Below are positions 6,117 to 10,369 of a stretch of DNA of 28,281 nt, one piece after another; positions within the stretch are counted from its first letter, which is position 1, and every line of letters starts with the position of its first letter. The notes under the pieces were generated by a model, which ran no database searches, was not told where the DNA came from, and was given only the letters and a program-made list of their open reading frames with translations. The DNA comes from an uncultured Acidimicrobiaceae bacterium (lineage in GTDB: Bacteria > Actinomycetota > Acidimicrobiia > Spongiisociales > ZC4RG35): positions 1 through 28,281 of the forward strand of contig CAYZKF010000001.1 of the NCBI GenBank assembly GCA_964479135.1, in the 5' to 3' direction. A program made the position numbers and the translations under genes.

Positions 6117-6229
6117 CCGGGGTATCTCCCGCCTCGGGCCTCGTCAACCGTTCTGTGAGTATCTCGGCAGTCCCCCTCTGCCACGACCTGCACGGAACGC
6201 TATTGGGTCTTTGTGCCCATTCAGTCCTC

Positions 6230-6238
6230 TGTGGATAA
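6230..6238. promoter_or_regulatory. Single consensus DnaA box upstream of the sigma gene
   Basis: TGTGGATAA is the reverse complement of TTATCCACA; a TTGACA hexamer lies at 6254-6259. Confidence 0.3.
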
Positions 6239-6312
6239 ACGTCGATAGTGATATTGACAAATGCCATTGGGTGGCCAGTGCTGTTCCTACGCTGGCCGAT
6301 GAGCGCGAGAGT

Positions 6313-7239
6313 ATGAGCAGGTCTATCGAACGAGAAGTGAGCGACGAGGCGATCCGTCAATATTTGGACGGAATCGGCACCTTCGATCTGCTGACCGCCG
6401 AGGACGAAGTCCGACTCGCCAAGGCGATCGAGACCGGCCGCAAGGCCGAGATCTCGCTCGAATCCGAGAAGGATCCCACCAAGCGGCGTCAACTCGGCCA
6501 GTTGGTCAGGGCCGGCGAAGAAGCCCGTCAGACCTTCATCCGCTCCAACCTCCGCCTGGTGGTCTCAATCGCCAAGCGGTACGGCCACGCCAAGCTCCCC
6601 TTCCTCGACCTGGTTCAGGAGGGCAACCTCGGTCTGATCCGTGCCGTCGAAAAGTTCGAATATCGCAAAGGCTTCAAGTTCTCCACCTACGCCACCTGGT
6701 GGATCCGACAGGCGATCACCCGGGCCATCGCCGACAAGTCCCGCACCATCCGGGTCCCGGTCCACATGATGGACACAATCACTCAGATGCAGACCGCCGA
6801 GGCCAACCTGACCAAGCGCGCCGGTCGCAAGCCCACCGACGAGGAGCTCGCCCAGGAGTCGGGCCTCACTGTGGAGAAGATCCGGGAGGCTCGCAAAGTG
6901 GCCCCCGAGCCGGTCTCCATCTTCGAGCCGGTCGGTGAAGACAACGCCATGCTCGGTGACTTCATCGAAGATCTCGAGGCCACCGCGCCTTTCGAGCTGA
7001 TCGCCTCCAAGCTCAACATCGAGAACCTGCGATTCGTCCTCGACCGTCTCAACGAACGGGAGCGGATCATCATCGAGATGCGTTACGGGTTGGGCGACCG
7101 TGAGCCGGCCACCCTCGACGAGGTGGGCCGCCACTTCAACGTCACCCGTGAGCGCATCCGCCAGATCGAGGCCAAAGCGCTGGCCAAGATGCGACACCCG
7201 TCCACTCCCGGAGGTCTCCGGGAGATGGCCGTCGGCTGA
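6313..7239 (+). CDS. RpoD/SigA-family sigma-70 factor lacking region 1.1
   Basis: Region 1.2 ([10 protein letters not shown]), region 2 ([51 protein letters not shown]) and region 4 ([25 protein letters not shown]); ATG at 6313. Confidence 0.95.
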
Positions 7240-7245
7240 GTGTTA

Positions 7246-7560
7246 TCAAGCCGATCTGACCAGCTCCAGGAGGGCACCTCGGTCTGCTTCGACAGGGAGA
7301 TCTGCCTCAGCATGGCGGGGTCTCCCCCGGCCTCGTCGGCGGTGGTAGGCCCGGCCATCCCAAAAGATGACCCCGCCCCATACTCCCCATTCCAGGTTCT
7401 ATTGGAGAGCCAGCTCCAAACATCGGGAGCGCACCGGGCATCGGGCGCAAATGCTCTGCGCCTGAGCCAGGTCGGCCGGGCTCTCCGAGAAGAAGAGCTC
7501 ATGGCTCCCCTCGTCGGTACATCGGCCGTCTTCTTGTAGTTCTCTAAGCAAGTGGTTCAC
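7246..7560 (-). pseudogene. whiB7: WhiB7/WblC-like transcription factor interrupted by an in-frame TAG at codon 54 (7399-7401)
   Basis: GTG 7560 with GAGG RBS. Translation: MNHLLRELQEDGRC...LFF...ICARCPVRSRCLELALQ*NLEWGVWGGVIFWDGRAYHRRRGRGRPRHAE...VRSA*. Four Cys, GVWGG and the RGRPR AT-hook are all in one frame. Confidence 0.88.
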
Positions 7561-7593
7561 GTCGAAACCTCGTTCTTCCGATTCGGAGGCGGC

Positions 7594-7624
7594 AAACAAA
7601 AAGCCGCCGGGTGACTCCGGCGGC
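7594..7624 (-). terminator. Intrinsic terminator (attenuator) in the whiB7 leader
   Basis: Minus strand reads GCCGCCGG-agtcac-CCGGCGGC-TTTTTGTTT, ending ~33 nt before the whiB7 start. Confidence 0.85.
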
Positions 7625-7653
7625 CGCATTTCGGAGAGTTGTTGGTCGTCACA

Positions 7654-7767
7654 TCACATGACGAGAGGCCGCCGTCGGGTCTGATTCATGCCTGCGTCCG
7701 TGCCGGTCGGGGCGGACTGGCAGAATTTGCCCGTGGCATTGGGTCCGGTCTTACGCAGTCTGATCAC
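7654..7767 (-). CDS. Putative leader peptide (uORF) of the whiB7 attenuator
   Basis: GTG 7767 with GAGAGG RBS gives MIRLRKTGPNATGKFCQSAPTGTDAGMNQTRRRPLVM*; an internal ATG at 7689 gives an 11-aa version. It ends ~30 nt before the terminator. Confidence 0.5.
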   Translation of the reverse strand: MIRLRKTGPNATGKFCQSAPTGTDAGMNQTRRRPLVM

Positions 7768-7887
7768 AAAGGCACCCCTCTCTCGACGCCGCCATCATCG
7801 CCGATCCCCCCTCCCTTCGTCAAGGCAATAACTCGATTCAGCCACACCGCTCGGTGGTGGAGGTATCTGAACGCCTAGAGTCGCACC

Positions 7888-8346
7888 GTGATCAAGTTCA
7901 TCTTCCGACTGTTCAAGTATGCCCTGGTGACAGCCGTCGGCTTGGCGGCGGCCGCCAAGATGGTCCTTCAGTCGAGCGCCGGACCGGAGACCGAGGAGAT
8001 CGACATGGTCTCCATCTTCGAAGGCACGGTCCTGGTGTCGAACGCCGACCCTTTCTATGGGGGAAAGATCCTCGGGATGTTCTCCGGAGTCGCCCTCGAC
8101 ATGCGTAAGGCGACACCCTCCCCGACCGGGGTCCACCTCGATCTGGCGGTGGTCTTCGGTGGGGTAACCCTGGTCGTCCCCGAAGGCTGGCGGATTCGCT
8201 CCGAGCTCAACGTGGTCATGGGAGGTTTCGCCGACCAGACCCGGACCACCGCCGACCCCGACGTCCCCACCGTGACCCTGAACGGCATCGTGGTCATGGG
8301 TGGTGTCCAGGCATCGTCGAAGCCGATCGTCGAGGTGGTGACCTGA
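7888..8346 (+). CDS. LiaF/DUF2154-like cell-wall-stress protein
   Basis: N-terminal hydrophobic anchor and Gly-rich beta repeats (MFSGVALDMR, VFGGVTLVVPEGW, VMGGF). Confidence 0.65.
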   Translation: MIKFIFRLFKYALVTAVGLAAAAKMVLQSSAGPETEEIDMVSIFEGTVLVSNADPFYGGKILGMFSGVALDMRKATPSPTGVHLDLAVVFGGVTLVVPEGWRIRSELNVVMGGFADQTRTTADPDVPTVTLNGIVVMGGVQASSKPIVEVVT

Positions 8347-8393
8347 CGACGGCACGAATCGAAGCCAGTCGCCTGATCCCCGGTCGAGGCCCC

Positions 8394-9572
8394 GTGATCG
8401 ACAACGGGGTGGTGGTGATAGAGGGCGGAGAGATCTCCTATGCCGGGGAGTCGAGTGGCGCGCCGGAGACCAACGGCGCCGCGGTCTTCACCACCGACAC
8501 CGTCATGCCCGGGATGTGGGAGTGCCACGGGCACTTCATGGGTACCCGCAGCGCCAACATCGACGAGATCCATGTCACCCGGCCGCAGATGGCGGCGATC
8601 CGGTCGGCCGTCGACGCACGCCGCGTCCTAGACGCCGGCTTCACCTCAGTGAGGGAGGTTGGCGGCCAGGGCAGTTTCCTGGCCAGGGTGATCGATGAGG
8701 GGACCATGGTCGGCCCCTCGATCTACGCCAGCGGGGGCATGCTCTCCATGACCGCCGGTCATGCCGACATCCACGACATGGACCCGGCCACAGCCCGGCA
8801 CTCGATGGCCCGCCAGTGGGGTGAGGACGGGGTGGTCGACGGACCGAACCAAGCGAGAGCCGGGGTGCGACGGATGCTTCGGCTCGGTGCTCGGGTGATC
8901 AAGATCCACGCCTCAGGTGGGGTGCTCAGCCAGCTCGACGACCCGCAGTTGCCCCAGTTCTCCAAACCCGAGCTGGAGGCGATCATCGATGAGGCATCGC
9001 GCATGGAACGAGTGGTCGCCGCCCACTGCCACGGCAAGCGGGGGATGATGGCCGCCATCGAGGCTGGCGTGAAGACCATCGAACACGGGACATTCATGGA
9101 CGAGGAAGTCGCCGACGCCATGAAGGAACGGGATGTGATCCTGGTCCCGACCCGCTGGATCGTGGACTTCCTGATGCGAGAGGGCGAGAAACGGGGAATG
9201 CCCGAGTACGCCAAGCAGAAGCTCTTCGACACCGCCGCGCAACACGCCAAGGGAATCACCCTCGCCGTGGAAAAGGGCGTCCGAATCGCCATGGGCACCG
9301 ACATCTTCGGGGCCGGGTTGTGGGGGCGGAATGCCGAGGAGTTGCCACTGCTCGTCGACTGTGGGATGGGCCCCCTCCAAGCTATCGAGGCGGCGACGGC
9401 CAACGGCCCAGACACCCTCGGGCCCCAGGCCCCCAACGCCGGGCAACTGAAAGCCGGTATGGACGCCGACGTGATCTGTGTCAACGGGGACCCTACGACC
9501 GACGTCTCGATCCTCGCCGACCCTGACAACATCACCCACGTCTGGAAGAGGGGCGAGCTGGCCAAGGGGTGA
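8394..9572 (+). CDS. Metal-dependent amidohydrolase (prolidase/Xaa-Pro dipeptidase-like subgroup)
   Basis: PGMWECHGH (HxH), GFTSVRE, IKIHASGG, AAHCHG, TIEHG, MGTD and GQLKAGMDADV. Confidence 0.9.
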   Translation: MIDNGVVVIEGGEISYAGESSGAPETNGAAVFTTDTVMPGMWECHGHFMGTRSANIDEIHVTRPQMAAIRSAVDARRVLDAGFTSVREVGGQGSFLARVIDEGTMVGPSIYASGGMLSMTAGHADIHDMDPATARHSMARQWGEDGVVDGPNQARAGVRRMLRLGARVIKIHASGGVLSQLDDPQLPQFSKPELEAIIDEASRMERVVAAHCHGKRGMMAAIEAGVKTIEHGTFMDEEVADAMKERDVILVPTRWIVDFLMREGEKRGMPEYAKQKLFDTAAQHAKGITLAVEKGVRIAMGTDIFGAGLWGRNAEELPLLVDCGMGPLQAIEAATANGPDTLGPQAPNAGQLKAGMDADVICVNGDPTTDVSILADPDNITHVWKRGELAKG

Positions 9573-9586
9573 ACTGGTGCGCCTCA

Positions 9587-9684
9587 TCGTGTGCACAACT
9601 AGACCATCACGGGTGTTCTGTGCACACGCAAGACCTCCTCGTGTGCACAACTAGACCGTCACGGGTGTTCTGTGCACACGCAAG
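9587..9684. repeat. Tandem pair of 46-bp palindromic units (period 52 bp), REP-like
   Basis: tcgtgtgcacaactagacc[a/g]tcacgggtgttctgtgcacacgcaag at 9587-9632 and 9639-9684; each unit has a 10-bp stem cgtgtgcaca/tgtgcacacg. Confidence 0.9.
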
Positions 9685-9733
9685 GAGCTCCCGTCGCCCG
9701 GACTACGTCGTGCGATCACCCCCGAAGCGGGGG

Positions 9734-10369
9734 CTAGACGAGTCGACGCTTCGAGGCCCAACGGGCGAGCTCGTGGCGGTTGGACAACTGGAGCTTGCGC
9801 AACACCGAGGAGACATGGGTCTCCACCGTCTTGATCGAGATGTCGAGCTTGCGGGCAACCTGTTTATAGGCGTAACCCCGGGCGATGAGACGCAAGACGT
9901 CTTTCTCCCGCGAGGTCAACTGGTCGAGCTCGGGATCCTCGTCACTGGGTAGGGCGCCGGCAAACGCGTCGAGGACGAACCCGGCGAGACGGGGTGAGAA
10001 CACTGCGTCTCCGGCATGGACCCGACGTACCGCATCGGCCAGATCGGGGGGCTCGATGGTCTTGGTGACATAACCTCGGGCTCCCGCCCGGATCATGGCG
10101 ATGACGTCTTCGGCCTGATCGGACACCGACAGGGCGAGAAACTTGACCTCGGGATTGGTCCCAGCGACCGACTCGATCACGGCGATCCCCCCACCATCGG
10201 GCATATGGACATCGACCAGGGCGACCTCGGGCCGGAGCCCTCTGATCTCGGCGATGGCGGTGTCGACGTCCTGAGCCGACCCGACGATGGTGAACTCCTC
10301 GGCGAGCTCCGCCTTGACCCCGGAGAGGAAGATCCGATGGTCGTCGACCAGATAGACCTTGATGCTCAT
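9734..10369 (-). CDS. NarL/LuxR-family response regulator
   Basis: LVDDH, LVDVHMP, GARGYVTK and LTSREKDVL..IARGY.YKQVA..L.IS.KTVETHVS. Confidence 0.96.
   Translation of the reverse strand: MSIKVYLVDDHRIFLSGVKAELAEEFTIVGSAQDVDTAIAEIRGLRPEVALVDVHMPDGGGIAVIESVAGTNPEVKFLALSVSDQAEDVIAMIRAGARGYVTKTIEPPDLADAVRRVHAGDAVFSPRLAGFVLDAFAGALPSDEDPELDQLTSREKDVLRLIARGYAYKQVARKLDISIKTVETHVSSVLRKLQLSNRHELARWASKRRLV

What the first reader, a model, noticed from the sequence alone, without database searches (positions are those of the whole stretch)
7246..7560. whiB7-like gene gated by one in-frame amber codon between the Fe-S domain and the DNA-binding half
Seen: codon 54 is TAG (context CAA-TAG-AAC). Beyond it, 50 codons stay open in frame with intact GVWGG and RGRGRPR AT-hook motifs. 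The upstream part keeps all four Cys (C14, C38, C41, C47), and the leader attenuator is intact. Spacing matches WhiB7 (CLAAALQRAEPWGVWGG versus CLELALQ*NLEWGVWGG), so the stop replaces exactly one residue. Known: WhiB7/WblC is induced by ribosome-targeting antibiotics, and aminoglycosides raise stop readthrough. Inference, three options: a recent nonsense mutation, a sequencing error, or a readthrough switch that makes the full activator only under mistranslation while a 53-aa Fe-S-only form is made otherwise.
Basis: partly seen in the sequence, partly recalled or inferred. Interest (0 to 1): 0.8.

Follow-up and report, generated by a model that had tools for sequence, protein, structure and literature searches.

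The report
Private stop codon in whiB7 gene
An otherwise normal copy of the antibiotic-stress regulator gene whiB7 in an uncultured soil Acidimicrobiia genome has one premature stop codon, but no relative shares it, so it is a one-off broken allele or an assembly error and not a regulatory switch.

Summary
On the minus strand (7560..7246) lies a whiB7 orthologue whose codon 54 (7401..7399) is TAG. The four Cys, GVWGG, the RGRGRPR AT-hook and the uORF/terminator leader are all intact.

The stop is not conserved:
- All 28 orthologues that cover this codon, from 40 related genomes, have a sense codon there. Within the genus it is GAG/GAA (Glu) in 7 of 8.
- All 15 metagenomic homologues have Glu.
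- Contigs from three independent soil and volcano studies, 97.7-98.4% identical to the window here, read C at 7401, which gives GAG.
- One of those contigs (12.3 kb) encodes exactly the window's protein with Glu54. Inside the coding sequence it differs only by this base and four synonymous third-position changes, plus a TGA/TAG swap at the natural stop.

So TAG arose by a single G-to-T change private to this 63%-complete MAG. No run I could lay shows the TAG base itself.

What remains is either a recent, real loss-of-function allele, comparable to the natural Gly64delG truncation of M. tuberculosis lineage L1.2.1, or a consensus error. Interest is low.

The parts
7246..7560 (-). whiB7 orthologue: 104 sense codons plus the natural TGA stop, interrupted at codon 54
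   Evidence: Searches give the sequence and translation. Pfam Whib E 1.1e-16. Best solved relative is Mtb WhiB7, 7KIF, E 5.9e-17.
7399..7401 (-). In-frame TAG (codon 54). On the + strand it reads CTA, and base 7401 (A) is the private change.
   Evidence: Genus orthologues have GAG/GAA here. Contigs of runs X2, X4 and X9 read C at 7401. L049 has GAG.
7402..7560 (-). N-terminal 53 codons: the Fe-S cluster half, with Cys codons at 7521-7519, 7449-7447, 7440-7438 and 7422-7420
   Evidence: These Cys columns are invariant in alignment A1.
7249..7398 (-). C-terminal 50 codons, lost if the TAG terminates translation: the GVWGG turn (7386-7372) and the RGRGRPR AT-hook (7335-7315)
   Evidence: W58-G69 and R74-P81 are invariant or nearly so in A1. 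The three differences from the sister contig in this part are all synonymous.
7594..7625 (-). Leader intrinsic terminator: 9-bp GC-rich stem, 6-nt loop and a T-run
   Evidence: Present in the MFE and centroid folds. The same hairpin plus T-run lies upstream of the orthologues.
7654..7689 (-). Leader uORF of 11 codons from the ATG, with a longer form from GTG at 7767. Its GGCGGCC segment and the ...GTGATGTGAC end are conserved.
   Evidence: ORF list, sequence, and the alignment of leaders.
7794..7833 (-). Promoter-like TTGACG-N18-GATGAT, with an AT-rich box (7833-7826) directly 5' of the -35 hexamer
   Evidence: An AT-rich box followed by CCTTGAC is conserved in the eleven leaders aligned. That this is the WhiB7 AT-hook site is inferred from what is known of mycobacterial whiB7.

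Best explanation
This is an ordinary whiB7 orthologue of an uncultured soil Acidimicrobiia bacterium that carries a strain-private, recent GAG(Glu54)-to-TAG nonsense change, a single G-to-T on the coding strand (C-to-A at + strand base 7401). If the base is real, translation ends after 53 residues. The product keeps the four cluster-binding Cys but lacks the GVWGG turn and the AT-hook that places WhiB7 on the AT-rich box next to the -35 element. It therefore cannot activate its regulon or its own promoter, which makes this a loss-of-function allele. There is no in-frame ATG, GTG or TTG just after the stop for re-initiation. Shown here: the stop is present, it is private, and the ancestral codon was GAG. 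Inferred: loss of function, by analogy with truncations that remove the AT-hook in M. tuberculosis.
For: 1. All 28 orthologues that cover the codon, from 40 related genomes, have a sense codon. Within the genus, 7 of 8 have GAG/GAA, so TAG is one step from the ancestral codon.
2. All 15 metagenomic homologues have Glu at this column.
3. Contigs from three studies, 97.7-98.4% identical over the locus, read C at 7401, giving GAG.
4. The exact protein with Glu54 is on record on a 12,348-nt contig. Within the 104 codons it differs from the window only at codon 54 and at four synonymous third positions, codons 40, 60, 66 and 75. The protein was therefore under purifying selection for essentially all of the divergence, and the stop is recent.
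5. Those four synonymous differences show the window is a genuinely distinct strain, so a fifth real difference is unremarkable.
6. No other WhiB7-type copy was found in this genome. The other four WhiB paralogues are at most about 44% identical.
7. Natural truncating whiB7 alleles persist in the wild. Mtb L1.2.1 Gly64delG removes the AT-hook, is described as a loss-of-function allele and renders the sublineage macrolide-susceptible (PMC9159947). By the ungapped alignment, it lies five codons downstream of the equivalent position.
Against: The TAG base is not seen in any independent data that I could lay. A single base in a 63%-complete, 219-contig MAG may be a consensus error. Whether the 53-residue product is made, is stable or is inactive was not tested.
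Confidence: 0.55

Rival explanations
1. It is a sequencing or assembly consensus error. The organism's whiB7 is intact (GAG, Glu54), and A at 7401 is an artefact of the MAG assembly or a minority read path chosen by the assembler.
For: The genome is a fragmentary MAG of 219 contigs at 62.7% completeness. Every independent sequence that covers the site reads GAG. The rest of the gene, its leader and its promoter are flawless. C-to-A/G-to-T is a known oxidative-damage artefact class of Illumina libraries (my own knowledge, not tested here).
Against: The window is a 28-kb contig, which implies reasonable depth in its source. The other differences from the sister contig look biological: four of four in the coding sequence are synonymous, and strong/weak base changes are symmetric at 28:27 over the flanks. 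There is therefore no sign of a generally error-ridden consensus.
Confidence: 0.38
2. It is a programmed or exploited readthrough switch. The TAG is real and maintained, a 53-residue Fe-S-only form is made by default, and full-length WhiB7 is made only when mistranslation (for example by aminoglycosides) raises stop readthrough.
For: The 50 downstream codons are open and intact, with three synonymous and no non-synonymous differences from the sister contig. The attenuator is intact. This pattern is equally expected for a very recent mutation or an error.
Against: The stop is absent from all 28 orthologues, all 15 homologues and three near-identical populations. No tRNA with a CUA anticodon was found among the 12 tRNAs of the MAG, and no PylS scored above the cut-off. 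Both of these are weak, because the MAG is incomplete. From the literature, whiB7 induction works by uORF stalling and positive autoregulation by full-length protein (bioRxiv 10.1101/2023.06.02.543512). A gate that opens only under miscoding would blind the system to the ribosome-targeting inducers that paper names (macrolides, lincosamides, spectinomycin).
Confidence: 0.03
3. It reflects genome-wide reassignment or suppression of TAG in this organism.
For: None specific. It was considered only because the stop is an amber codon.
Against: Long ORFs of the window read normally under table 11. The other four WhiB paralogues have no internal stop. TAG is the natural stop of this very gene in the sister contig. 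No suppressor tRNA or PylS was found. The sister population encodes Glu at this codon with GAG.
Confidence: 0.01

Closest known systems
WhiB7 / WblC of Mycobacterium and Streptomyces (solved: Mtb WhiB7 with sigma-A region 4 and RNA polymerase; PDB 7KIF, 7KIM, 7KUF, 7KUG)
   Same: It has a four-Cys WhiB domain, the GVWGG turn and a C-terminal RGRP-type AT-hook. Its best solved relative by sequence is WhiB7. It has a uORF plus intrinsic-terminator leader, and an AT-rich box abutting the -35 hexamer.
   Different: It comes from class Acidimicrobiia rather than Actinomycetes. It has LEW where Mtb has EPW before GVWGG. It has a 20-residue acidic tail after the AT-hook. In this assembly the frame is broken at codon 54.
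Natural whiB7 loss-of-function allele Gly64delG of M. tuberculosis sublineage L1.2.1 (PMC9159947)
   Same: It is a naturally occurring allele that truncates WhiB7 before the AT-hook. By the ungapped alignment the break is five codons from the equivalent position. Its leader and promoter are otherwise intact.
   Different: The Mtb allele is a frameshift fixed in a whole sublineage, with a measured phenotype. This one is a single-base nonsense change seen in one MAG only, and it is unconfirmed by reads.
Programmed stop-codon readthrough / recoding
   Same: The only shared features are an in-frame stop and an open, intact downstream frame.
   Different: The stop is not conserved among orthologues. 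No recoding signal or suppressor was identified.

Membership tests
WhiB7/WblC subfamily of WhiB-like proteins | WhiB domain with four cluster-binding Cys | tested here: met
   Pfam PF02467 E 1.1e-16. C14, C38, C41 and C47 are invariant in A1.
WhiB7/WblC subfamily of WhiB-like proteins | Gly-rich turn (GVWGG) followed by a C-terminal AT-hook (RGRP core) | tested here: met
   Both motifs are present at 7386-7372 and 7335-7315. They align to the Mtb WhiB7 turn and its RGRPR. In this assembly they lie downstream of the TAG.
WhiB7/WblC subfamily of WhiB-like proteins | Closer to WhiB7 than to other WhiB paralogues | tested here: met
   PDB search: WhiB7 E 5.9e-17, WhiB1 E 9.3e-10, WhiB (WhiB2-type) E 1.8e-9, WhiB4 E 1.7e-5.
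WhiB7/WblC subfamily of WhiB-like proteins | Long 5' leader with a uORF and an intrinsic terminator (ribosome-mediated attenuation) | tested here: met
   Terminator at 7625-7594 and uORF at 7689-7654. Both are conserved in orthologous leaders. The mechanism is described in bioRxiv 10.1101/2023.06.02.543512.
WhiB7/WblC subfamily of WhiB-like proteins | AT-rich site next to the -35 hexamer of its own promoter (autoactivation) | tested here: met
   An AT-rich box followed by CCTTGAC is conserved in the eleven leaders aligned. Binding was not tested.
WhiB7/WblC subfamily of WhiB-like proteins | Uninterrupted reading frame giving the full-length protein | tested here: not met
   TAG at codon 54. 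The frame is intact in all 28 orthologues and in L049.
WhiB7/WblC subfamily of WhiB-like proteins | Induction by ribosome-targeting antibiotics and control of a resistance regulon | not testable with these tools
   The organism is uncultured, and no RNA run was listed.
Programmed stop-codon readthrough | Stop codon conserved at the same position among orthologues | tested here: not met
   None of 28 orthologues, none of 15 homologues and none of 3 near-identical populations has it.
Programmed stop-codon readthrough | Purifying selection on the extension after the stop arose | tested here: inconclusive
   There are three synonymous and no non-synonymous differences downstream relative to L049. 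A very recent mutation or an error predicts the same.
Programmed stop-codon readthrough | Suppressor tRNA or dedicated decoding machinery | tested here: inconclusive
   There is no CUA anticodon among the 12 tRNAs found. The two unassigned ARAGORN calls are poor models. The PylS match is 27.8 bits against a cut-off of 178. The MAG is only 63% complete.

The most novel reading that the evidence does not exclude
The TAG is real in this strain and is leaky enough that some full-length WhiB7 is made. Drugs or stresses that raise amber readthrough would then partly restore the regulator, an accidental conditional allele and not an evolved switch.
Probability: 0.03. Interest if true: 0.5.

Novelty: new member of a known kind. 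Interest (0 to 1): 0.1.

Why it matters
It matters little beyond annotation. The locus should be annotated as a whiB7 orthologue with an internal stop (a pseudogene, or a possible assembly error). It should not be called as the 76-residue ORF that a gene caller would start at the ATG inside the terminator (7629). Two modest points are useful. The full WhiB7 module (AT-rich box/-35 promoter, uORF, terminator, Fe-S domain, AT-hook) is conserved in soil Acidimicrobiia. If the allele is real, it adds an environmental example to the natural whiB7 loss-of-function alleles known from M. tuberculosis.

Tried and rejected
- **Reads, run X1.** X1 is the best holder, with pieces identical to the window at 7142-7400 and 7483-7800. 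It has no contig over 7401-7482. The TAG base therefore could not be confirmed or refuted in the sample closest to the window.
- **Allele-specific run search.** A search with window:7371-7431, where every 31-mer contains base 7401, listed no run.
- **Expression.** No RNA holder was listed.
- **Metagenome contig scans.** I scanned for the exact flanks with any codon at position 54, and for a degenerate Q-TAG-N-x-E-W-G-V-W-G pattern. Both gave 0 matches. The first blank shows only that this collection does not hold the species at this locus.
- **Genome-wide scan for in-frame stops.** I looked for stops flanked by coding-like sequence, using a codon log-odds model. It gave 52 candidates (30 TGA, 21 TAG, 1 TAA). 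On inspection they look like ordinary same-frame gene junctions. The whiB7 site itself did not pass the filter, so the scan is too insensitive to measure the MAG's error or pseudogene rate. I draw no conclusion from it.
- **NCBIfam.** It has no model that matches the protein.
- **Whole-leader fold.** The fold is no more stable than shuffles (z = -0.45). Only the terminator hairpin is a robust element.
- **Earlier scan notes.** These are first-reader notes on the same window and are not independent evidence.
- **Not run.** Structure prediction and complex prediction were skipped because no open question depended on them.

Full report
**What is there**

The feature lies on the minus strand. A 104-codon frame runs from GTG at 7560 to TGA at 7248-7246, and its codon 54, at 7401-7399, is TAG.

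Read through, the protein matches Pfam Whib (PF02467, E 1.1e-16). Its best solved relative is M. tuberculosis WhiB7 (7KIF, E 5.9e-17), ahead of WhiB1 (9.3e-10), a WhiB2-type WhiB (1.8e-9) and WhiB4 (1.7e-5). The alignment is ungapped from residue 18 to 83 and includes the GVWGG turn and the RGRPR AT-hook. The four Cys (C14, C38, C41, C47) lie upstream of the stop, and GVWGG and RGRGRPR lie downstream.

The regulatory region is complete:
- a promoter-like TTGACG-N18-GATGAT at 7823-7794;
- an AT-rich box directly 5' of the -35 hexamer, conserved as 'AT-rich + CCTTGAC' in the eleven leaders aligned;
- a short uORF ending at 7654, whose GGCGGCC segment and stop region are conserved;
- a 9-bp GC-rich terminator with a T-run at 7625-7594, which is also found upstream of the orthologues.

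This is the architecture described for whiB7 in mycobacteria (bioRxiv 10.1101/2023.06.02.543512).

**Where it comes from**

The window is the whole of contig C1 of a metagenome-assembled genome of 1.68 Mb in 219 contigs, 62.7% complete. The named relatives that carry the closest orthologues are uncultured Acidimicrobiia MAGs. The genome has four other WhiB paralogues, none with an internal stop and none of WhiB7 type.

**Is the TAG conserved?**

It is not.
- **Related genomes.** A search of 40 related genomes found a WhiB7 orthologue that covers this codon in 28 of them (53-83% identity), and none has a stop. One of the 28, G038/L032, is an unpublished genome. The conclusion does not depend on it.
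- **Codon state.** The codon is GAG or GAA (Glu) in 7 of the 8 same-genus orthologues and TCA (Ser) in the eighth. Further out it is Glu, Asp, Gln, Asn, Arg or Leu. TAG is thus one G-to-T step from the ancestral GAG.
- **Metagenomic homologues.** Fifteen homologues from the 5.8-billion-protein collection all have Glu at this column. No truncated form was returned.

**Nearest populations**

Public soil and volcano metagenome runs from seven studies hold parts of the locus. I laid contigs from four runs of four studies. Three of them cover base 7401:
- X2: a 664-nt contig with 13 differences;
- X4: a 12,348-nt contig with 20 differences over 860 nt;
- X9: a 385-nt contig with 6 differences.

All three read C where the window has A, which gives GAG.

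An exact-sequence look-up of the window's protein with Glu at codon 54 found it on a 12,348-nt contig of the same length as the X4 record, fetched as L049. Within the 104 codons, L049 differs from the window at five bases. Four are synonymous third-position changes (codons 40, 60, 66, 75) and the fifth is codon 54, GAG against TAG. In addition, the natural stop is TAG in L049 and TGA in the window. The flanks are 96-98.5% identical, so this is the same species or a very close sister.

Four synonymous and no missense differences mean the protein was under purifying selection for essentially all the time separating the two lineages. The stop is therefore either very recent or not real.

**What this does to the three options**

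That result was obtained. There is also no support from decoding machinery. None of the 12 tRNAs found has a CUA anticodon, the two unassigned ARAGORN calls are poor models, and no PylS reaches the cut-off. These negatives are weak in a 63%-complete genome.

From the literature, whiB7 induction relies on uORF stalling and then on autoactivation by full-length protein. A gate that opens only under miscoding would disable the response to the ribosome-targeting inducers that paper names (macrolides, lincosamides, spectinomycin). I put this reading at about 3%, and only in the weak form of an accidentally leaky allele.

**Real allele or error?**

I could not decide this.

For a real allele:
- The window is a distinct strain with biologically sensible differences from its sister. 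All four other coding differences are synonymous, and strong/weak base changes are symmetric at 28:27 over the flanks.
- The contig is 28 kb long, which argues against very thin coverage in its source.
- Natural whiB7 truncations are known to persist. The Gly64delG allele of M. tuberculosis L1.2.1 removes the AT-hook, is described as a loss-of-function allele and renders the sublineage macrolide-susceptible (PMC9159947). By the ungapped alignment, its position is five codons downstream of the codon broken here.

For an error:
- The genome is a fragmentary MAG.
- Every independent sequence that covers the site reads GAG.
- I found no independent sequence that carries the A.

I put a real, recent, private loss-of-function allele at about 0.55 and an artefact at about 0.38.

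**Mechanism if real (inferred)**

Translation would end after 53 residues. The product keeps the cluster ligands but lacks the Trp/Gly-rich turn and the AT-hook. No in-frame ATG, GTG or TTG follows the stop closely enough for re-initiation. Without the AT-hook the protein cannot be placed on the AT-rich box next to the -35 element. Both the regulon and the positive feedback loop would then be lost, as inferred for the Mtb truncation.

**Novelty and verdict**

This is a known kind of gene with a known kind of lesion. The only mildly new points are that the complete WhiB7 module is conserved in soil Acidimicrobiia and, if the base is real, that this is an environmental loss-of-function allele. 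Interest is 0.1.

Noticed in passing
window 8341-9740 compared with L049: The amidohydrolase gene (8394-9572) is only 72-76% identical to the sister contig over 8541-9340. The flanks on both sides are 94-98.5% identical. This looks like a divergent allele brought in by recombination, or a hypervariable locus.
   Followed up: partly
window 7246-7560: At all five positions within the 104 codons where the window differs from the sister contig, the window has A/T and the sister has G/C. Genus outgroups mostly side with the sister. Over the whole aligned flanks the strong/weak changes are symmetric at 28:27. The sample is too small to read as relaxed selection.
   Followed up: partly
window 7561-7629: The whiB7 frame stays open upstream of the true GTG start, through the terminator, to an ATG at 7629. 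A gene caller would therefore report a spurious 76-residue ORF. The apparent conserved peptide 'FLFAA' in this stretch is just the translated terminator T-run.
   Followed up: yes
window 6211-7239: A group-2 type sigma-70 factor (regions 1.2, 2, 3 and 4; best NCBIfam scores are below the RpoD and SigB cut-offs) lies tail-to-tail with whiB7, with the two stop codons 6 nt apart. The very high contig depth at 7136-7203 comes from many other organisms matching conserved sigma region 4.
   Followed up: no
window 7238 and 7608 (run X9): The volcano-metagenome population has a 10-nt deletion just past the whiB7 stop, in the 6-nt gap to the sigma gene. It also has a G inserted behind 7608, within the 3' arm of the terminator stem.
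   Followed up: no
window 7888-8346: A 152-residue protein is divergently oriented from the whiB7 promoter. It has a weak LiaF-like C-terminal match (E 0.0048, below the Pfam cut-off). The same gene sits next to whiB7 in L049.
   Followed up: no
G000 contigs C10:14605-14694 and C23:11168-11257: ARAGORN calls two 90-nt 'tRNA-???' with two-base anticodons. Their drawn structures have mismatched stems and look like false positives.
   Followed up: partly
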